From Eledone cirrhosa (taxonomy: Eukaryota), in contig OZ024745.1 in NCBI GenBank assembly GCA_964016885.1, forward strand, positions 130,200,001-130,264,000: 64,000 nt of DNA. The letters are read 5' to 3'. Every line of letters starts with the position of its first letter. Position 1 is the first letter of the stretch. The notes beneath the pieces were generated by a model. It saw only the letters and a list, made by a program, of their open reading frames with translations. It was not told where the DNA came from and did not search any database. This document shows, piece by piece, positions 23,819-42,792 of the stretch. Position numbers and translations under genes: made by a program.

Positions 23819-25753
23819 TCGAAACATAAGTCAATAGCTTGAACTCATAATCCTTTATTTACTGCTATATATATTTCGACGATAACCATTGAATGGCTAT
23901 GACCTCATCAGGCAGTTTGTCAGTTCTTAAATATGCCAGCTCTGTGTTTATAGTGTTGATGGTATCAGACCCTTGGGACATATGAGCTTGTTAGGAATAA
24001 TTTAATGTTGTCACCAGGAATAGTCTTGATTCTGATTGGTCAGTTTGTAGATGGCAGTAGGGTTGGTATTTGACCTCAAAGAGGCAGGTGGTGTTGTAAA
24101 GTTCAAACCGTCAGGCAAGATGACAATAGTTCCACATGACTGATTTTCACAAAAGGCATTCCTGGTCAGATATATATTCAATTAAGGTTAATAGTATGAA
24201 ATAGATAGTACAGGTCATTCTTAAATTGAGGAGTTTATGTGGAGTGGTGCTACTGAAATTTATGGTTAGAGTAGAAAATTTACATATAATAAGACTTATG
24301 TAGGTTGGCTTGCACGTACACTCACACCCACCTCCACAGACACACACACACATCCACACATACAAAATGTGGGGTGGTAATACTTAAATATTGGTTAGAG
24401 TCCAATACTTAGATAGTTTAGAAAATTTAGAAATAAAAGGTTCATGCTGGTTGACTTGTACATACACTCACACCTACCCCCTCAGACACTCACACATCTA
24501 CACACACAAATCCATACAGGTTTGTATATATATATACATGCATGTATGTATGTACGCACAAGCATATATATATATATATATATATAAAATATATATATAT
24601 ACACAGAACATATATATAAAATATATACATATAAAATATATATATACATAAAATACACACATACATAAAATATATACACACATAAAACATACATACATAT
24701 ATATATATAAAATACACATACATATACATATATATATAAAATATATACATATATATACATACATATATATAAAATACACATATATACACATATAAGATAT
24801 ATATATATATACACATGATATATTTATACATATATATATATAAAATCAGGTTCAATAAAACGTGGTTTTGATGACTCCAAACCAGTAGAGGATCCGGTGG
24901 ACCATCCACCATAGGGACCACAAACTATGGGTGGTTGTTGTTGTCCAATGGTCATTGGTACGGGGGTGTAGGGGACCTACATGGGGGGAGGGGGCGTTGT
25001 GGGAGGCCGTAACTGGGGTTTATCCATATAGCTTGAGGAAAGTTCCCGTCCTTAGGTGTCTGCAGGCACCGAATAAGTCGGTCCGTCTGTTCAATAGCTT
25101 GGTTCCGCCATGAAGAATCTCGAGTGTCTCACTAAGATAGAGGTTGCAAATACCAGACCCGCCTCTGTCTGGGGAAACCTTTCTAACCACGGACCAGACC
25201 AGAGAGTGCGGGGTCTTTTCAAGTTTGAGCTTCCAAATCAATTCAGAAAGGGCTGTACATTACCTCTTATCTATTCGGTTAAAGGAATGGCGATGGTTAT
25301 ACCACCGATCTTTGAAGCTCGTCGCTGTGGATCCTATGTAGACTACGTTTTTCGTCATGCATTCATTACTAAGGGGGTACAGTGTTGGGTCTCTGCAATT
25401 ACATGACTTCTTAAGCCCTACCAGATGTACCGCGTGGTTACTATCACTCGGGGTTGGTTAGTAGCCTCGGCAATCAACTCAGGGTCGTTGGGTTCGGTGT
25501 GCTAGCTGGGCCTGTCTGGGTTCCGTTGCGTCCCGCGTGCTGGTTCTGTTGGTGGCTCCGGGGTTTACTGTGGTATTAGAGGCAGTGAGCCTATACCTAT
25601 TTATGCCAGCTGTGTGCTGGGCTACGGAGCGTGTGGTTGAGTAGGAAAGTTTCACCGTGTGCCTGTTGAATATTTTATGGTACTTGTAGGCCCTAGGGAA
25701 ACATTTATCCAGTACTCTAAAGAATGTTCTATCCAGGCTGGTACGTAGACCCA

Positions 25754-25755
<2 letters not shown>
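23816..25755 (-). mobile_element. 5'-truncated, degraded Hydra-like PLE (thumb, GIY-YIG and 3' pseudo-LTR)
   Basis: FFRVLDKCFPRAYKYHKIFNRHTVKLSYST, CNCRD..CMTKNVVYIGST..FKDRWYNHRHSF and CNLYLSE..LLNRR..CRH all align to the 819-aa protein; internal stop; interrupted by a microsatellite at ~24520-24842. Confidence 0.85.
23861..23916 (-). ncRNA. Type I hammerhead ribozyme motif in PLE pseudo-LTR
   Basis: actgc-CTGATGA-ggtcatagccattcaatggttatcgtc-GAAA-tatata-TA-gcagt; 5-bp stem I, palindromic minimal stem III. Confidence 0.85.
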
Positions 25756-25792: not shown

Positions 25793-25975
25793 AATGTAAC
25801 TTGGAGTTACTGTAGGTTCACCCAGGTGAGAACTCGATGTTTAGGTTCACTTCAGTGTCGAGGTGTAAAACTATACAGAGTGTATTATAGTGAAAAGATA
25901 ACAAGGACGATTGGTTACTCCTTCATTACATTTAATGAAGGAGTAACCAATCGTCCTTGTTATCTTTTCAGTATA
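25789..25975 (-). mobile_element. Family A palindrome-plus-tail insert (short arms)
   Basis: Reverse-complement family A tail plus palindrome ~25886-25975 centred near 25930. Confidence 0.85.
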
Positions 25976-31831: not shown

Positions 31832-33490
31832 TATTCTGGATATAGAATAAAACATATTCAAGCTTGAAAAAAATGTCTGAACGCCTTAATTTTGTATTAT
31901 CAACGTATATATAGAAATTATATTCGATTCGGAAAGTGATCAATAAATCGAATAAATGCGATTGAAAATATATCATCTCATTTATATTATGAGCAGTATT
32001 GTGATGTTTCGATTTTATTGGTAAAAACCTGTCTTCACACTTGATGTTATCCTATTAAGTCGATATCTTCATCAGAAATTATCTACTAAGCTAACGAGTT
32101 AAGCTTCACAGTGAAGAGGGGAAAATAACATAGGTTAGTGAAACATTTCTGAGCCCTTGCTTTAAAAAAAGGGCAAATTATATCAGGATAAGATAATCTT
32201 TCCAGATCATTTTATCTTTACTGATGTTTATCCCATATTTTAGTTTGTCTGAATTTACGGAAATACCTATAAATTTTTCGATTTATACCTTCACAATCTG
32301 ATATTTATGGTGAATAATGACTAGATTATTCAAGTGCACACACAAAAACATGAACACAAACAGACAGACACATGTTTATAGAGGTTGTCATGTATGAAAT
32401 TTGTAGAAATTTGTAGAAAGGAAAGATATTTCTTCAAATCTCATACCTGACAAACCAATATATATTGCTTTTCTTACTTACGTCCCTCTTTAAAAATGGT
32501 GGAACTTAATGTCGTTTTGATATATATCTAGAACAAGTCTTTATACATTTCCAAATATGTTACTAGTGCACATTTTATGAGCTTTGAAGTAAAAGCTTAC
32601 ATTAACTGTGTTTCTGTGTCACTTACATTGATGCTTTTGAACTGTAAATTTGTCACTCCAGTAATAGATGTCCAATAGATAGACTGGAATGTTCTCAATG
32701 TTTTGGTTATAGAAGAGTGATGAAAGTACTTGTCATCTCATAGCATAATGGGAACATACTAAATAGAGGTAACCTGAATTTAACTGAGTTATATGTGTTA
32801 TAAGTGTTGATGTGGCAGTGACGTCGCTGCTTTCAGTGGCAAATGCTATGCTCCGAGTGGTTAAGGGCGCTCACTCAACCTACACAATACTTGATAATCA
32901 TTTACTTTATCTAGATCAGCCATGTAGTATTTGCAGTGGAAGAATAAAGAGAAAGTATAAAAAATAAGTATAAGATGAGGAGACAAGAAATAAGAGTAAA
33001 AATCTAAAGGATAAAAGGAAGTTATTGAAATAAACAAAGGAATGGTGAAAAGGGAGACGTAGAAATTAAATTATAGAAGTAAAGTTGGAAGATAGAATAA
33101 AAATTTGAAGTAAGAGACATTAAGGAAATAGAATAAAGAATGCATTATAAAGGACAGAGAGATAGGTAGAGAGTGAAAGTAAGAGAGAGTGGGAGAGAGA
33201 AGAAAAGACGAGAGAGAGTGAGAGTGAGACAGAGGAGAAAGAGGGAAGGGAGTCGAGGAGAGATACAGACAGCAAGAAAGAGAAAGTTCAGAAAGAAAGA
33301 CATACTAAGTGGTAAAATGATGAATGAAACTGCGGATTATCGACACACGTACATTGGCAGGCATGTGTGCACACAAAACACATATATGCTTACACGTACG
33401 CAGTAATCTACATACATATATATATATATGTATATATATATGTATATACATACATTTATATATATATATATATATATATATACATACATT

Positions 33491-33524
<34 letters not shown>

Positions 33525-33525
<1 letters not shown>

Positions 33526-33818
33526 GCCACCAGGCTTACGTCGTATACAGACTAGAGTGTGACAAATGCAACAACTTCTACGTAGGTAGCACCATCAGAC
33601 CACTCCACATAAGAATAAAAGAACACCTCAATACTAACGCTTCCTCATTTAAGAAACACTTAGTTAAATGCAAAATCACCGACAAAACCATAACAGTTAG
33701 GATAGAAACTAAGGAAAGAAACCTCGGCAATCTTAGAATTAAGGAAGCACTAATTATAGATAAAACACAACCACCAATCAATAATAGACTAGAACTCAAC
33801 ACCCAATTTATAACCTGA
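33525..33818 (+). pseudogene. 5'-truncated PLE GIY-YIG endonuclease with CCHH motif (uninterrupted frame)
   Basis: [29 protein letters not shown]...KKHL...LRIKEALII...PPINN: GIY-YIG residues plus the CxxC..H..H motif of canonical PLEs; begins abruptly at (TA)n. Confidence 0.9.
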
Positions 33819-35268: not shown

Positions 35269-35877
35269 TGGTGGCTGCCAACTCGTTTTCGAGTACGGCC
35301 ACTACTTTATATCCATGTAGGAGAACCCCTACCGATGCGCTGAACGAGTGTGACTTTTCAGTCCGGCCAGCGACTTGAAAACCCCGGTACAAACACTACA
35401 CATGTGACAATTATTGACACATAGTGCTGGGCCCATGGTGCCATGTGACGACAAGTGCAGAGAGATCTCCAGATATAAAGCAATGCCTGTGCCGTGAAGT
35501 TTTTATAGTGAGCAAAGGCACTGCACAAAGCCAGTCCCACTCTCTTAACCAAGATGATATTTACCAAAAAGAAGAACAAGTCAACATCATTGGATATCAT
35601 CAGGGTTGCAGGTGTGATATCAGAGTTTTCCTTCTCCTAGAATTCTGCCTTGACAAAGGCTAAGGGGTCATCTCTCCCGGTGATTTTGGATGGCCATTGA
35701 CTTTTAAGAGCTCCTTTGCCCTTTGACAGGTTTTGTTTTTAGTCCTGCAGGATGTCCAAAGTCACCCTCCTCACCAAGAAACCTTGGTGGGGTTGCCAGT
35801 TTAGTCGCCAACGACCCGACCATGGGACAGGTTGTACTGGGATACATGTTACCAGTAGCACCAACTGGTGACCTAAC
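35269..35877 (-). mobile_element. RTE-type LINE 5' region with structured leader
   Basis: Minus motif tctaggagaaggaaaactctga, recalled as typical of RTE/BovB 5' UTRs; first 117 nt homologous to 46384-46500. Confidence 0.6.
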
Positions 35878-36449: not shown

Positions 36450-36481
<32 letters not shown>

Positions 36482-36685
36482 GTATTAGTTATACTATTTA
36501 TGGTTATGTAAACACAAAACCTTAAGCAGTTGTAAGTATTTTACACACACCCTAAATAGTGGTAGGCAGTAATGTATTACTACCTTATTACCAGTAAGTT
36601 AAGTAGCTCAATGTAAAAACATCAGATGATTTACAGAGCAGTTATATGAAATATAAGAATCAAAGAACTGTTCAAAACATTATTG

Positions 36686-36732
36686 TGCTTACAGCTGTTT
36701 CCTCCAAACCGAGGTTTGGATTCTTCGGAGCA
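36686..36732 (-). ncRNA. Variant hammerhead ribozyme (CCGAAGA core), 3' pseudo-LTR copy
   Basis: tgct-CCGAAGA-a-tccaaacc-tc-ggtttgga-g-GAAAC-agct-GTA-agca. Confidence 0.8.
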
Positions 36733-38175
36733 ATTTATTAATGCATGGACAGTTATATGACCTCCTTTTCAGCCGAGAGACATACCAATACATATTCAAA
36801 CATTGATACATATTCAAACATTGTGGGTCAACATTCATTACAAAATTTAGAGTGGCAGTACACACTTCGAGATTACATTTATATTAATAGGTACAATCAA
36901 AAATCAAAGATATAGGTTAAAGTACAACATGAAGATAAGTGGTTATATGGTGCAAATGTTATATGTGTGGCACGCATGTGCGTCTTGTTTATATAGTGTG
37001 GCAGAGAGATATGTGTGGTAGAGGCACTTAGGTAGGTAAATAAGAGTGTTAGGTTGGTAGATCTGGTGGCAAAGTCTTTATATGATTGATGTAGTCTGTG
37101 TGTGGAGAAATATTATAAGTATTAAAGATAGTGCAAGCATTAAAAGTGTTATAAGTATTGGAGATGCACAACGCAGGGATGTCAAGTAATTCATGTACTT
37201 CGGCATTTTCATGGTCAAGGGAGTGTATATTTCGATTATATGCCTTTCACATAATCCACGACAATCCAGTTAGAGATCGTAGTCTGGTGTTCTTTAGTTC
37301 GATACAGGAGGTTGTTACGTTTCGAGAGACGCCATTGAATACCGGAAGTGTGTGTGTGGCTAAGGGGAGTTAATGCATGCGGGGAGGTAACTCTGGGGTT
37401 TCTATATCTAGCCATTAAAATGTGTCCCAATATGGACCCTAAATTCTATGGTGAGGTGCACCTTCCAAGAGAGACTTTTAAAGCATAAAGTGCACTAACT
37501 ATAGAGTAGTTTAACTAAATTATGCTGAAGGTGATCATATTATTATTAAGGTGGATTAACCCATCTTAAGGTGCTACAAATGGAAATTATAGATGATGAG
37601 CGAGGATTCTAAATTAATGATCTCTGTGGTTGTAGTCTGCTCATATGACCAGGCGCGGTGATTGCAGGATTGCTTCAGGACCCAATGATCTCTGGTAAGA
37701 TCTGGGTCATCGCTTGCTACATTGGATGTCGAAAGATAATCGTCCCCAGGCAGGCCAAAGGTCAATCCGCAGTCCTCGCGACCCCTCTCTGACCGTCAGA
37801 TCATCCATATACGTACAACCCGCACGGCAGTTGCATTGCATTCACTCACTGCGCTCAGCAGCCCGGTCCTACTGGTCAACAGCGCTACTCGATTAAATCA
37901 TTTTACATCTGTCTAAGGAAGGTGTTTCCTCTGCCCAACACCATCCAACCGATCAATTCATGCTCAAATTACCCTTAGAGCGGTGTAGTGCCGTCCAGGT
38001 GGGTGGATGTTGTCACACCTGCCGTAGAGGTATAAATGGGTATTTTCCCTGCGAAGGGTTCCAGAGGGATGTCGTTGTTTGTGTTATAATGGATCAGCTA
38101 GTGTTGGGTATGTAGTATAGGGTGTGTCTCTGGTGTTTGATGCTAGATGTGGTGTTAGGTTCCAGTCCGACATTG

Positions 38176-40635
38176 CTATATATAGGGCTTAAAGTTTTGG
38201 AAGGAATGTCTGAGGCGGTGTTGGCAAGTTGCAAACACCTCAGATTTTTTGTTAAGTAGGTTACGGTTGGAGAAGATAATATTGTGTGTCTCTAGTATAC
38301 AGAGGTTACAGAATTTATTAGGTGGTTTGTACGAGGTCGCGCTGCCTATCACTTCCCATTTGAGTGTGTATGGTTTATTTTTAGATTTTAGATAGTGTAT
38401 GTAGCTAGAAAGTGAGGTGGAGTTGGCTAGGCTGTGCTTTTTGAACGAGTGGATGTGCGAGTTATATCTAATTTTGAAGCAGTTAGAAGTGGAGCCTACA
38501 TAGGTTTCTGAAGAGTTATTAGTCGTGACTGTGCATGAGTATATGACATCCTTGGTTAGGCATTTTTTATCTAAGGGGCAGGTTCTATTAGCTCTACAGT
38601 TACAATTATTCTGTGCGTTAGTCCGCTGGTTATAATGCAATGCGGAAGTCTGTGTGGTGGATATAGGATTTTGGGTGTTCAGGTTGACAACCCTGGTGTT
38701 ATTACTTATACTAGTGTTATTTCTATTGTTACTGCCGTTGCTATTGTTGCTTGCTACAGTGGTATTTAGAGGGTTTGCATCCCGTTGTGATTTTGTTTGT
38801 TGGAAGTAAGAACTAATTTTACTATTATTGCTGCTAGCTATGTGGTATGCTAAGTTAGGCGTCGTAGAGTATGAGATTTTAATGGTGTTTTTGTTTAAGA
38901 GGTTGTGGTACTTGTGTCCTAGAGGGAAGTTTTTATCTAGTAGTGAGAAGAAAGCCCTAGGTATGTTGGTGGAGACATTTAGGTTGAAAGGAGGGTTGAA
39001 AAATGTATTATTTCTTCTTCTATTTTTGCTTTTAGTGTTTGGTGTGTTGCTTCTTCCTAAGGCCTCACAGTAGTTTCCATGGTAATGGTTACTTCCGGTG
39101 GCACCCTCCGCTTTGGTGTACTTGTGGTTGCTATTCCTATTATTAGATTTCCTCATGGACATGTTGTGCGAGATGATGTTGTAGCTATGTGTTTTCTTAG
39201 GTAGGAACTCTATTTCTATATTATGGCCGGAGCTAGCTAATGCTTGATTGTAATATTGTGAGTTTTTGCTAAATATGTTTGCGTCATAGGACAGACTAGA
39301 GATTCTATTGGACACCCCCTTAGAGATAGAGTTTAATATTGATCTAGGGTGATTAGACTTGGTATCTACGTAAATAAGTTTCTCATTAGGCTTATGGAAA
39401 GGTGTATATATTTTTGAGTCTAGGTATAGTGTGGCGTCTAGGAAGTTAACATTTTTAGTGTTTTTGTCCATGGTGATACTAAGGTTAAAGTTTTTGAATG
39501 TCTTATGCAGTTGTTTTCTAGTTCTTTCTATATTAAATTTTTTATATTCTATGAGTAGAAGTGCATCATCGCGGTACAAACCACCGTTGAGGTAAGGGAG
39601 GTCTTTATGGATTTCATTGAGGAGGTATAGGCCGACCAAATCAGTGACCTGCGCCGAGTCACTAGATCCCATGGTTATGTCGAAGTTGTTGTGCGTATCC
39701 TTGCGTGTCCATAGTTGGTCCTCGAAGGTGATTATGGTTTTACGGGCCGCAAGGATGACATCAACCTGGGCTCTAGTCAGGTCGCTATTGGTCATGGCCA
39801 TGATAAGTGCCTTATTTAATAGGATAGGGGAAATAGAGGTGTAGTATGAATTGATATCAAATTGAATAAATTTTTTGTTCTTATTATTCTTGATATCCTT
39901 AAACCATTCAATTACTTCACCCGTATTTCCCCATTGTTTAAGGTGTATCTTGTGTTTAATTTGTGGGATGATTTTATCCAAAATCTTCTTGCTGATAATA
40001 CCAATGTCGGACTTGGAAGGGCAGATAAGTCTTATCGTGGGGTTGCTGATGAAGTTCTCCTTATGGTCCTTCAGAGAGAATCTAGGGGGGTTCGGAGTGA
40101 AAGGTTGTGTATGCCTCTGTAGTCCTAGTTTAGACACTATATTATAACCCTCTACATTAATATCTTCTAAGTTTTTCAAGGTGGTTTTTTTGTAGCTTTT
40201 ATGTAGTTCATTATATATAAACTTTCTATAAGTAATATAATCTAGGCTGTATATGTTATTAGTTTTATCTGCGTGTACAATAATTTTATTACTAGTTTTG
40301 AATCCACTAATAGAAGTGTTAAGTTTGTTTAAGAAGGTGTTGCTTCTAATATGGTGCTTATTGTATTTAATGTTCTTAACTAGTTTAACTAGGTCATTTT
40401 CAAAGGAGTTAAGTAGAGTGTTATGAGGGGGGCTTTTAAAGGTTTTAAAGCCGAAGGAGTCAAAATTGTTAGTATTATTCAAGTTGTTAGATTTGTTTCT
40501 ATCATAATGGAATGTCCTCCATCTCACTCTATTGATAAATGAATTTACACTGTTGATCAGCAATTTCTCATATGTATTCCTGGATGGTATTGGTATGTTC
40601 TTGGTTGACATGGGGAGTTGGTCTTTGATTAGCAT
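38176..40635 (-). CDS. PLE polyprotein: reverse transcriptase plus C-terminal GIY-YIG endonuclease (Hydra-clade-like)
   Basis: 819 aa uninterrupted. ADKT, FIQFDINSYYTSI (motif A), TMGSSDS (B), GLYRDD (C), NFLD, SNHP; CNCRxxxxCPLxxKC linker; VIY..YVGST..FKIRY..LE..LN endonuclease without CCHH. Confidence 0.95.
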   Translation of the reverse strand: MLIKDQLPMSTKNIPIPSRNTYEKLLINSVNSFINRVRWRTFHYDRNKSNNLNNTNNFDSFGFKTFKSPPHNTLLNSFENDLVKLVKNIKYNKHHIRSNTFLNKLNTSISGFKTSNKIIVHADKTNNIYSLDYITYRKFIYNELHKSYKKTTLKNLEDINVEGYNIVSKLGLQRHTQPFTPNPPRFSLKDHKENFISNPTIRLICPSKSDIGIISKKILDKIIPQIKHKIHLKQWGNTGEVIEWFKDIKNNKNKKFIQFDINSYYTSISPILLNKALIMAMTNSDLTRAQVDVILAARKTIITFEDQLWTRKDTHNNFDITMGSSDSAQVTDLVGLYLLNEIHKDLPYLNGGLYRDDALLLIEYKKFNIERTRKQLHKTFKNFNLSITMDKNTKNVNFLDATLYLDSKIYTPFHKPNEKLIYVDTKSNHPRSILNSISKGVSNRISSLSYDANIFSKNSQYYNQALASSGHNIEIEFLPKKTHSYNIISHNMSMRKSNNRNSNHKYTKAEGATGSNHYHGNYCEALGRSNTPNTKSKNRRRNNTFFNPPFNLNVSTNIPRAFFSLLDKNFPLGHKYHNLLNKNTIKISYSTTPNLAYHIASSNNSKISSYFQQTKSQRDANPLNTTVASNNSNGSNNRNNTSISNNTRVVNLNTQNPISTTQTSALHYNQRTNAQNNCNCRANRTCPLDKKCLTKDVIYSCTVTTNNSSETYVGSTSNCFKIRYNSHIHSFKKHSLANSTSLSSYIHYLKSKNKPYTLKWEVIGSATSYKPPNKFCNLCILETHNIIFSNRNLLNKKSEVFATCQHRLRHSFQNFKPYI

Positions 40636-40884
40636 ATTGGCAATATTATATGTCAGCTCAACGATATGGAGCAGTTAATAGTATTAGTTATACTATTTAT
40701 GGTTATGTAAACACAAAACCTTAAGCAGTTGTAAGTATTTTACACACACCCTAAATAGTGGTAGGCAGTAATGTATTACTACCTTATTACCAGTAAGTTA
40801 AGTAGCTCAATGTAAAAACATCAGATGATTTACAGAGCAGTTATATGAAATATAAGAATCAAAGAACTGTTCAAAACATTATTG

Positions 40885-40931
40885 TGCTTACAGCTGTTTC
40901 CTCCAAACCGAGGTTTGGATTCTTCGGAGCA
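40885..40931 (-). ncRNA. Variant hammerhead ribozyme, 5' pseudo-LTR copy
   Basis: Identical to 36686-36732, offset 4199 bp. Confidence 0.8.
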
Positions 40932-41624
40932 ATTTATTAATGCATGGACAGTTATATGACCTCCTTTTCAGCCGAGAGACATACCAATACATATTCAAAC
41001 ATTGATACATATTCAAACATTGTGGGTCAACATTCATTACAAAATTTAGAGTGGCAGTACACACTTCGAGATTACATTTATATTAATAGGTACAATCAAA
41101 AATTATGTGAAAGGCATATAATCGAAATATACACTCCCTTGACCATGAAAATGCCGAAGTACATGAATTACTTGACATCCCTGCGTTGTGCATCTCCAAT
41201 ACTTATAACACTTTTAATGCTTGCACTATCTTTAATACTTATAATATTTCTCCACACACAGACTACATCAATCATATAAAGACTTTGCCACCAGATCTAC
41301 CAACCTAACACTCTTATTTACCTACCTAAGTGCCTCTACCACACATATCTCTCTGCCACACTATATAAACAAGACGCACATGCGTGCCACACATATAACA
41401 TTTGCACCATATAACCACTTATCTTCATGTTGTACTTTAACCTATATCTTTGATTTTTGATTGTACCTATTAATATAAATGTAATCTCGAAGTGTGTACT
41501 GCCACTCTAAATTTTGTAATGAATGTTGACCCACAATGTTTGAATATGTATCAATGTTTGAATATGTATTGGTATGTCTCTCGGCTGAAAAGGAGGTCAT
41601 ATAACTGTCCATGCATTAATAAAT

Positions 41625-41671
41625 TGCTCCGAAGAATCCAAACCTCGGTTTGGAGGAAACAGCTGTAAGCA
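41625..41671 (+). ncRNA. Variant hammerhead ribozyme, inverted pseudo-LTR copy
   Basis: tgctccgaagaatccaaacctcggtttggaggaaacagctgtaagca read directly on the plus strand. Confidence 0.8.
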
Positions 41672-42453
41672 CAATAATGTTTTGAACAGTTCTTTGATTC
41701 TTATATTTTATATATATATATATATATACATACATATATATTTATACATATATTTATACATATATATATATACATATATATATACATATATATATATACA
41801 TATATATATATACATATACATATATACATATACATATATATACATATACATATATATACATATACATATATATATATACATATATATATATACATATATA
41901 TACATATACATATATATATATACATATATATATATACATATATATACATATACATATGTATATATACATATATATATATACATATATACATATACATATA
42001 TATATATACATATATATATATACATATATATATATACATATATATATATACATATATACATATACATATATATATATACATATATATATACACATATATA
42101 TATACATATATACATATACATATATATATACACATATATATATACATATATATATACATATATACATACATATACATATATATATACATATATATATACA
42201 TATATATATACATATATATATATACATATATATATTTACATACATATACATATATATATATACATATATATATATACATATATACACATACATATATATA
42301 TAATATATATGTACATATATATATGAATGTATGTATAGTATATCTGGCAATATACCGCATGTCTAATCAAAAACATTTCGAAGACCCTACGCCATCGGTT
42401 CCAAAGCAATGACTATGTCACTCACCTCCCTTCGGTGGAAGCAGGGAGTGCGT

Positions 42454-42495
42454 GGCTCTGATGATCGCCAACCAGCGTAAAACAGACTGTTAGCT
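42454..42495 (+). ncRNA. Degenerate hammerhead motif
   Basis: ggct-CTGATGA-tcgccaaccagcgt-AAAAC-agact-GTT-agct; G12 of GAAA is substituted. Confidence 0.55.
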
Positions 42496-42650
42496 TCTCT
42501 CCCTTCTTCCGCCAAAAAGAAGTAAGTGACACAGTCACCACCCCAAAACCGACAGCGCATGGTCTTCAAAATGCCTCTAATCAAACATACGGCACATTGC
42601 CAAACACACCATACATACATTCATATATACATCGAGGCATATATACATGG

Positions 42651-42792
42651 AAGCACATGGCTTAGTGGTTAGAGCATTGGCCTTTCAATCGAAAGGTTGT
42701 GAGTTAAATTCTCAGACCGGGTGATGTGTTGTTTCCTTGAGCAAGACAATTTATTTCACATTGCTCCAGCTTACTCAGCTGTAGAAATGAGA
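42651..42792 (+). mobile_element. tRNA-headed SINE fragment
   Basis: tggcttagtggttagagc head and ccttgagcaagacaatttatttcacattgctc core, as at 30739. Confidence 0.7.

What the first reader, a model, noticed from the sequence alone, without database searches (positions are those of the whole stretch)
36479..41708. Intact, probably young Hydra-like PLE whose ORF is bracketed by two same-sense non-canonical hammerheads
Seen: uninterrupted RT-GIY-YIG ORF, pseudo-LTR copies that look identical by eye, and hammerheads at 40885 and 36686 exactly 4199 bp apart. Established: PLE pseudo-LTRs carry minimal type I hammerheads with palindromic stem III loops thought to act as dimers. Inference: double cleavage would release a 4199-nt unit RNA. 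The element's 3' end (36479) lies ~210 nt downstream of the predicted cut, so a doubly cut linear RNA could not supply it; a circularised or uncleaved template would be needed.
Basis: partly seen in the sequence, partly recalled or inferred. Interest (0 to 1): 0.8.

Follow-up and report, generated by a model that had tools for sequence, protein, structure and literature searches.

The report
Jumping gene copied from both ends
This is an intact, very young Penelope-like jumping gene, and its many genomic copies record how it likely moves: its ribozyme likely cuts the RNA in living cells, and two copying enzymes likely start together at two fixed, hairpin-marked sites on one probably circular RNA.

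Summary
Observation confirmed: an open 832-codon RT-GIY-YIG frame, a 426-nt perfect direct repeat 4199 nt apart, a 613-nt inverted arm, and three (not two) U4C hammerheads. It is a young Hydra-clade Penelope-like element (motif test; no tree with named references). Insertions have two fixed 3' ends, A (36479) and B (about 36643); two-armed insertions pair one A with one B (45 of 48 directly, none AA or BB). Each end lies just before a hairpin motif, GCUC-stem-UU-GAGC, found in 49 of 77 distant relatives and not found in print. 5' ends pile up at the predicted scissile bond (17 arm ends versus 1-2 at two upstream control positions), a likely fossil of cleavage in vivo. Repeats within an insertion share lineage variants (65 of 65), so both derive from one unit-length template. 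B ends often carry telomerase-like added repeats (39 of 133). Best model: twin priming on a re-closed 4199-nt circle (0.55); main rival, homologous template switching on linear RNA (0.3). No RNA was observed. The circle idea is published as a hypothesis; the scan noted cut-site over-use in another genome.

The parts
36479..40677 (-). One complete 4199-nt unit (5' UTR, ORF, 1.5-kb 3' UTR, hammerhead, 164-nt tail); 3' end A at 36479 joined to (TA)n
38176..40635 (-). Single ORF, 819 aa from first Met: TERT-like RT (YxDD at aa 354), CxCX5C linker (aa 678), GIY-YIG endonuclease without CCHH
   Evidence: model pLDDT 85.6 with telomerase RTs as top fold matches
40678..41103 (-). Upstream pseudo-LTR: 426-nt second-round overshoot, identical to 36479-36904
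41102..41714 (+). Inverted arm started at site B, joined to the main arm by a 2-nt overlap; outer end in (TA)n near 41708-41714
36686..36732 (-). Downstream type I hammerhead, U4C core, palindromic stem III; predicted cut after 36690
40885..40931 (-). Upstream hammerhead, identical; predicted cut after 40889
41625..41671 (+). Third hammerhead copy, in the inverted arm (antisense to the ORF)
36479..36642 (-). 164-nt tail between the two fixed 3' ends A and B
36606..36639 (-). Start-site motif 1 (GCUC-hairpin-UU-GAGC), just 3' of end B; second copy at 40805-40838
40656..40672 (-). Start-site motif 2, just 3' of site A; present only at the repeat/ORF junction, absent at the element's own 3' end
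36733..38175 (-). Unusually long non-coding 3' region (no frame over 73 aa), function not found

Best explanation
This is an intact copy of a young Hydra-type Penelope-like retrotransposon whose insertions end at two fixed sites, and it likely spreads by two reverse transcriptases priming from the two ends of a cut (TA)n target at those two sites on one unit-length, probably circular RNA. Shown in sequence: two fixed 3' ends A and B, one of each per two-armed insertion; the same hairpin motif just 3' of each; identical lineage variants in all repeats of an insertion; an excess of 5' ends at the predicted scissile bond. Inferred steps: (1) a read-through transcript folds its two hammerheads as a dimer and is cut twice (cleavage in vivo about 0.8); (2) the 4199-nt monomer is usually re-closed, and the lone weak U4C ribozyme then stays quiet (0.55); (3) a protein pair binds motifs 1 and 2 and primes cDNA a few bases 5' of each (0.85), on the same molecule (0.7); (4) both enzymes run round the template, often past one unit, which makes the pseudo-LTR; (5) the two cDNA ends anneal by short microhomology, which makes the inversion. 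Unclosed monomers would give the 211+47-nt mini-insertions. At B the enzyme likely realigns on a short terminal repeat and adds extra repeats, as telomerase does.
For: A+B pairing: 45 of 48 unselected insertions with both ends seen, the other 3 resolving by eye to A+B through small inserts or a deletion, no AA or BB; 49 of 50 mini-insertions, the last an A arm with a deletion. Either arm can reach further (A in 26 of 45), so neither is a fold-back copy of the other. Same template: arms share variants in 435 cells against 59 discordant, tandem repeats 223 against 58, versus 1.05% between insertions; 65 of 65 minor alleles at 17 informative sites are in both repeats; arms stop within 10 nt of each other in 5 of 54 junctions (shuffle mean 0.53). 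Cut site: 17 arm ends at the first base after the cut versus 1 and 2 at two upstream controls; both arms ending near the cut in 58 loci versus 8 in a control zone; three segments whose 3' end is exactly the last base before the cut. Need for a circle or switch: 25 of 38 full-length main arms are A-ended although motif 2 exists only at the upstream junction; 35 of 41 second-round ends pass the cut site; only 1 of 38 insertions holds two full units. Motif: 49 of 77 relatives, covarying upper stem in 41 of 86 versus 2 in mirror register. Repeats at B: 39 of 133 versus 0 of 136 at A.
Against: No RNA end, circle or cleavage was observed directly. U4C weakens hammerheads in vitro (PMC3088659), and in the only reconstituted PLE cleavage was not needed for insertion and no reads ended at the cut (PMC11167929). 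The pile-up is not a single spike: 8 ends lie 4 nt upstream of the cut against 14 at it, and most mini-insertions join 6-9 nt downstream, which stalling at the folded ribozyme could also give. In about 4-5 insertions one arm stops at or next to the cut while its partner reads through (L109, L115, L121, L123, L174), which a single pre-cut molecule does not explain. Naiad PLEs make the same tandem, inverted and tail structures without canonical hammerheads (PMC8557442). Variant sharing cannot separate a circle from template switching. Motif binding is inferred from position only, and this family's motif 2 has a weak upper stem and lacks the ACT seen after 67 of 86 motifs in relatives.
Confidence: 0.55

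Rival explanations
1. Same twin priming at A and B, but on linear RNA (uncut, or cut only upstream). The cDNA started at the upstream junction switches by homology to the downstream repeat, as in LTR strand transfer. Cleavage is incidental.
For: Explains homogeneous repeats and scar-free read-through; needs no ligation; fits Naiads, which lack canonical hammerheads (PMC8557442), and the in vitro dispensability of cleavage (PMC11167929). Short templated inserts show this RT can switch templates (L038, L044; L286).
Against: Needs a switch in nearly every full-length insertion and again in the second round (35 of 41 pass the cut). Variants downstream of the cut are also shared by both repeats (10 cells at 8 sites), with no discordance there inherited between related insertions. 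No source's inversion junction was noticed copied into a daughter.
Confidence: 0.3
2. The 5' ends near the hammerhead come from RT stalling at the folded ribozyme or its dimer helix, not from cleavage; the U4C ribozyme is dead. (Compatible with the linear rivals.)
For: Second peak 4 nt upstream of the cut (8 versus 14; Poisson P 0.03 for 14 against a mean of 8); broad zone 6-10 nt downstream; U4C is a weak core.
Against: The top position is exactly the scissile bond, at the far side of helix I; several such ends carry untemplated bases or join both arms there (L112, L116, L118); three segments end at the complementary side of the same bond (no matched control). The core and a self-complementary stem III are kept in three subfamilies.
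Confidence: 0.2
3. Two RNA molecules from one source, held together by the palindromic stem III, each serve one RT.
For: Explains shared variants, joint stopping at the cut (both cleave in a dimer), and the cases where only one arm stops at the cut; dimer fold is favourable.
Against: A symmetric RNA dimer gives no reason for strict A+B pairing, nor for arms stopping in register far from the hammerhead (5 of 54).
Confidence: 0.15
4. Templates are long collinear transcripts of multi-unit master loci, as proposed for the anole element.
For: One two-unit insertion exists (L046); model proposed in PMC11167929.
Against: 1 of 38 insertions has two units and it is a lone tip 18 or more changes from any other; many lineages are active, each with homogeneous repeats; collinear copying can only shorten the upstream repeat.
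Confidence: 0.05

Closest known systems
Hydra clade of C-terminal EN+ Penelope-like elements (Craig et al. 2021, PMC8557442)
   Same: RW(K/R), DKT, CxCX5C linker, CxxC and CxH, no CCHH, single ORF, (TA)n targets, hammerhead near the 3' end.
   Different: Unit 4.2 kb against mostly under 3 kb; 1.5-kb 3' region; U4C core where all listed Hydra hammerheads and 28 of 28 found in relatives have CUGA; 164-nt tail. The paired start-site motif, A+B rule and cut-site fossils were not in the passages and supplement parts read.
PAc, Poseidon element of Anolis carolinensis (Frangieh et al. 2024, PMC11167929)
   Same: Internal initiation at two sites that bound the tail; need for RNA 3' of the start; both strands cut and extended; predicted dimer.
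   Different: Other clade; tail 30-40 nt; starts lie inside the ORF; no reads at the cut site; template proposed to be multi-copy mRNA; one-of-each pairing not reported in the main text.
PLE minimal hammerheads and circle hypothesis (Cervera and de la Pena 2014, PMC4209133); non-LTR retrozymes (PMC7229834)
   Same: Type I, palindromic stem III, dimer action; proposal of cut, ligation and more-than-unit copying; small circles shown in vivo for retrozymes.
   Different: The 2014 paper states it had no in vivo evidence; retrozymes are non-coding 170-400-nt units. Here the genomic record bears on an autonomous 4.2-kb element.
Telomerase repeat addition; L1 twin priming (both recalled, not from a call)
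   Same: Realignment on a short terminal repeat at site B; two primers on one target break joined by microhomology.
   Different: Repeats are 1-4 copies before processive copying; in L1 the two arms cover different template parts, here they overlap fully and start at fixed sites.

Membership tests
Hydra-clade PLE | Single ORF, TERT-related RT with C-terminal GIY-YIG | tested here: met
   top fold matches are telomerase RTs; Pfam misses the query itself and hits GIY-YIG in 4 of 60 homologues
Hydra-clade PLE | RWK motif in place of N-terminal GxKF/Y | tested here: met
   RWR at aa 38 (conservative change); RW[KR] in 54 of 60 aligned proteins
Hydra-clade PLE | DKG changed to DKT | tested here: met
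   DKT at aa 123
Hydra-clade PLE | CxCX5C linker; no CX2-5CxxC; no CCHH; CxxC and CxH around E and N | tested here: met
   aa 678, 776, 804; CX2-5CxxC absent
Hydra-clade PLE | Insertion into (TA)n | tested here: met
Hydra-clade PLE | Monophyly with named Hydra RTs in a tree | not tested
   Named references were seen only in the paper's supplement and compared by eye; no tree with them was built
Hydra-clade PLE | Canonical hammerhead core and length under 3 kb (typical traits, not diagnostic) | tested here: not met
   U4C core; 4199-nt unit
Type I dimer-acting hammerhead | Three stems round the core, NUH triplet, palindromic stem III | tested here: met
   palindrome kept as ACAGCUGU, ACAGUUGU, ACAAUUGU in three subfamilies
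Type I dimer-acting hammerhead | Self-cleavage at the predicted bond | tested here: inconclusive
   Indirect genomic support only; no RNA or in vitro test
Circular-RNA (retrozyme-like) replication | Covalently closed monomer RNA in vivo | not testable with these tools
   A ligated junction equals the genomic repeat sequence, so DNA and short contigs cannot show it
Neptune, Nematis, Penelope/Poseidon, Naiad | CCHH finger in the endonuclease (all four); N-terminal endonuclease (Naiad) | tested here: not met
   No cysteine pair between the GIY-like and YIG-like motifs; endonuclease C-terminal

The most novel reading that the evidence does not exclude
Hydra-clade PLEs are protein-coding circular-RNA replicons that integrate by a two-headed rolling circle: a clade-wide pair of GCUC-hairpin-UU-GAGC motifs docks the two halves of an RT-endonuclease pair at fixed starts on one ribozyme-made circle, the spacing of the motifs sets the PLE tail, and one half shows telomerase-like repeat addition, a living link between PLE and telomerase mechanisms.
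Probability: 0.4. Interest if true: 0.88.

Novelty: new variant of a known kind. Interest (0 to 1): 0.74.

Why it matters
How PLEs make their pseudo-LTRs, inverted arms and one-sided tails, and whether their hammerheads do anything in cells, are stated open questions (PMC8557442, PMC11167929, PMC4209133). This family gives a large natural record that ties all three structures to two motif-marked start sites, supplies indirect evidence of cleavage in vivo by a weak U4C ribozyme, and names a small conserved RNA motif and an intact protein with which the cycle can be rebuilt in vitro. Repeat addition at one start site bears on how telomerase, the sister group, arose.

Tried and rejected
Expression: no RNA holder was listed; contigs of runs of unrecorded type covered the element but cannot show RNA ends; one contig joins both arms at the cut, possibly the same locus type as L118 and not counted as independent. 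Homodimer prediction of residues 1-490 gave no answer. Pfam and PDB sequence searches did not name the query. Rfam found neither hammerhead nor motif (the weak hits were AT repeats). Folding z-scores of the motif regions were not significant alone (-0.29, -0.34); support comes from covariation in relatives. Fold-back copying of one arm from the other rejected (either arm can be longer; A arms hold the tail that short B arms lack). Blunt end-to-end jumping as the usual route disfavoured: no insertion at the cut junction among hits. Source-daughter tracing by shared single changes failed (pairs 13-44 changes apart). Seven apparent truncations at one control position were an older subfamily and were dropped; eight subfamily-2 loci were left out of the end histogram. 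Lunse et al. 2017 was not held, so its variant list is unseen; the supplements of PMC11167929 were not read and may bear on A/B pairing. No tree with named PLE references was built.

Full report
Coordinates: u counts along the element's sense strand, u = 40678 minus window position, so u1-u4199 is one unit; the predicted cut lies between u3988 and u3989 (window 36690/36689).

Observation. The ORF, the 426-nt exact direct repeat at offset 4199, the 613-nt inverted arm and the hammerheads are all as described; a third hammerhead lies in the inverted arm. The core is CCGAAGA (U4C) with an unpaired A/G at the base of stem II and a GUA triplet. One copy does not fold as a hammerhead, two copies fold as the double hammerhead. 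Both outer junctions are in (TA)n.

Identity. The protein has the motifs by which Craig et al. define the Hydra clade (PMC8557442 section 11; test). Homologues are 31-46% identical; a model from a 60-row alignment has pLDDT 85.6 and telomerase RTs as best fold matches. The host is an animal with a 3.0-Gb assembly; I did not determine it. The family is young: 40 of 40 scored hits were 100% identical in three searches with 217, 1179 and 1035 candidates; 31 of 38 full-length copies keep the frame and copies differ by 1.05% on average. These 38 were chosen for high identity.

Two fixed ends. Arms end at A (u4199) or B (u4033-4035), giving a 164-nt tail. Of 54 inversion junctions from samples not selected on the junction, 48 had both outer ends in view: 45 were A+B, 3 resolved by eye to A+B (two short templated inserts, one probable deletion), none AA or BB. 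Of 58 mini-insertions 50 were listed and fetched: 49 A+B and one A arm with a deletion. Eight of 21 apparently one-armed insertions carry a stub of the B start at the far junction. In print the tail is said to be often present at one end only and to lie between two RT start sites; a strict pairing was not in the passages read.

Start-site motif. Both ends are followed by the same nine bases and a GCUC/GAGC stem with a UU bulge. In 77 metagenome loci of relatives (30-42% identity) the sequence-only pattern gave 95 hits in 49 loci; 41 of 86 distinct hits had an upper stem of 3 or more pairs in the 3'-bulge register, 2 in the mirror register, shuffled mean 3.7, with several pair types at each position. 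Motif 1 lies 37-57 nt after the hammerhead cut in 10 loci (51 nt here), pairs are 55-83 nt apart in 11 loci, and by eye element ends fall a few bases before motif 1 (L310) or motif 2 (L296, L309, L354). By eye the motif is also in Hydra-2_Amil and Hydra-1 and -2_Ajap of the published supplement. It has no Rfam match and I did not find it in searches. Motif 2 exists only where the repeat meets the ORF, so it is missing at an element's own 3' end. If initiation needs it, as the anole enzyme needs RNA 3' of its starts, then the 25 of 38 full-length A-ended arms cannot be collinear copies of a one-unit linear transcript. Binding is inferred.

One template. Within an insertion, overlapping segments share variants: tandem 223 concordant against 58 discordant cells in 35,431 bp, inverted 435 against 59 in 70,630 bp, discordances mostly private (segment pairs overlap, so cells are not independent). 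At 17 informative sites 65 of 65 minor alleles in the downstream copy are also upstream. Repeats are thus reset in each cycle. Arms stop within 10 nt of each other in 5 of 54 junctions (3 of 20,000 shuffles). Only L046 has two full units and it is a lone tip.

Cleavage fossils. A pattern for 5' ends exactly at u3989 gave 24 hits: 17 arm ends at 15 loci, 7 point changes or a deletion. Controls: 1 of 10 at u3979; 2 true ends of 18 at u3944 (7 more were an older subfamily); 1 of 7 at u3988; 10 of 27 at u3999, downstream of the cut and mostly fold-back joints. A pattern covering u3978-3989 gave 54 hits, by eye 14 at the cut, 23 over the ten upstream positions including 8 at u3985 and one internal deletion, 17 point changes or indels; P about 2e-7 against the mean, 0.03 against the highest neighbour. 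Both arms end near the cut in 58 loci against 8 in a control zone; in 39 of 42 main-subfamily loci neither arm passes the cut by exact match, and two of those pass it by 4-6 nt on inspection. Three of 13 hits of the complementary pattern are segments whose 3' end is u3988 (no matched control). Against: the u3985 peak, and 4-5 insertions in which one arm stops at the cut and the partner passes it. Most arms read through: 35 of 41 second-round ends lie upstream of the cut. U4C lowers activity in vitro but suffices for a viroid in vivo (PMC3088659). All 28 hammerheads found in relatives have CUGA; three subfamilies here keep CCGA and a self-complementary stem III.

Repeat addition. 39 of 133 B ends carry 1-4 extra copies of the first templated 7-11 bases, against 0 of 136 A ends and 3 of 146 A arms that pass B. 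The template there is UUUC flanked by UAUA repeats, which would allow realignment as in telomerase (inference; slippage in some LINEs is recalled, not checked).

Model and verdict. Twin priming at motif-marked sites is well supported; cleavage in vivo is likely; a circle is the simplest way to join efficient read-through, reset repeats and full-length A arms, but homologous switching on linear RNA fits nearly as well and also covers Naiads. How the RNA is translated and what the 1.5-kb 3' region does are open. The element is a variant member of a known clade; the interest lies in the mechanism its copies record.

Papers. PMC11167929: parts 1-2 of 4 and passages, supplements not read. PMC8557442: passages, section 11, supplement parts 1, 2, 52, 53 and one search. 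PMC4209133: parts 1-2 of 4. Preprint 10.64898/2026.07.22.740005: part 1 of 5. PMC3088659, PMC7229834, PMC6765202, PMC5737381, PMC13282606: passages. Lunse 2017: not seen. Searches for prior reports; subscription papers are mostly outside the library.

Noticed in passing
window 25056-25754 (-): Decayed fragment of a different Hydra-like PLE (linker and endonuclease, 29% identity, stops), in (TA)n; a short perfect inverted repeat lies nearby at about 25890-25970.
   Followed up: partly
window 33324-33815 (+): Reading frame ending in a GIY-YIG-like stretch with two cysteines between the motifs, probably a remnant of another PLE clade.
   Followed up: no
L132, L134, L151, L176 and L165, L166, L168, L172, L178: Two older subfamilies with the same U4C core, the same two ends and motifs, and stem III loops AGTT and AATT.
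   Followed up: partly
L046 (G000:C3:133888000-133897999): Insertion with two full units plus 124 nt of a third and a B stub at the far end.
   Followed up: yes
L033/L034, L038/L039, L040: Both arms longer than one unit, giving head-to-head pairs of complete ORFs.
   Followed up: partly
L075/L202, L207, L209: The same fold-back junction at a quasi-palindrome (u3902) recurs at different loci.
   Followed up: partly
second-round ends: Few second-round ends fall within the tail (2 of 41 beyond u4020), fewer than the neighbouring zone suggests; unexplained.
   Followed up: no
ORF aa 484-534 and 628-673: Two low-confidence, Asn/Thr-rich stretches make this protein about 100 aa longer than most homologues.
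   Followed up: no
window 35500-35870 and 42330-42780: Flanks look like short interspersed repeats (by eye); the element sits in microsatellites between them.
   Followed up: no
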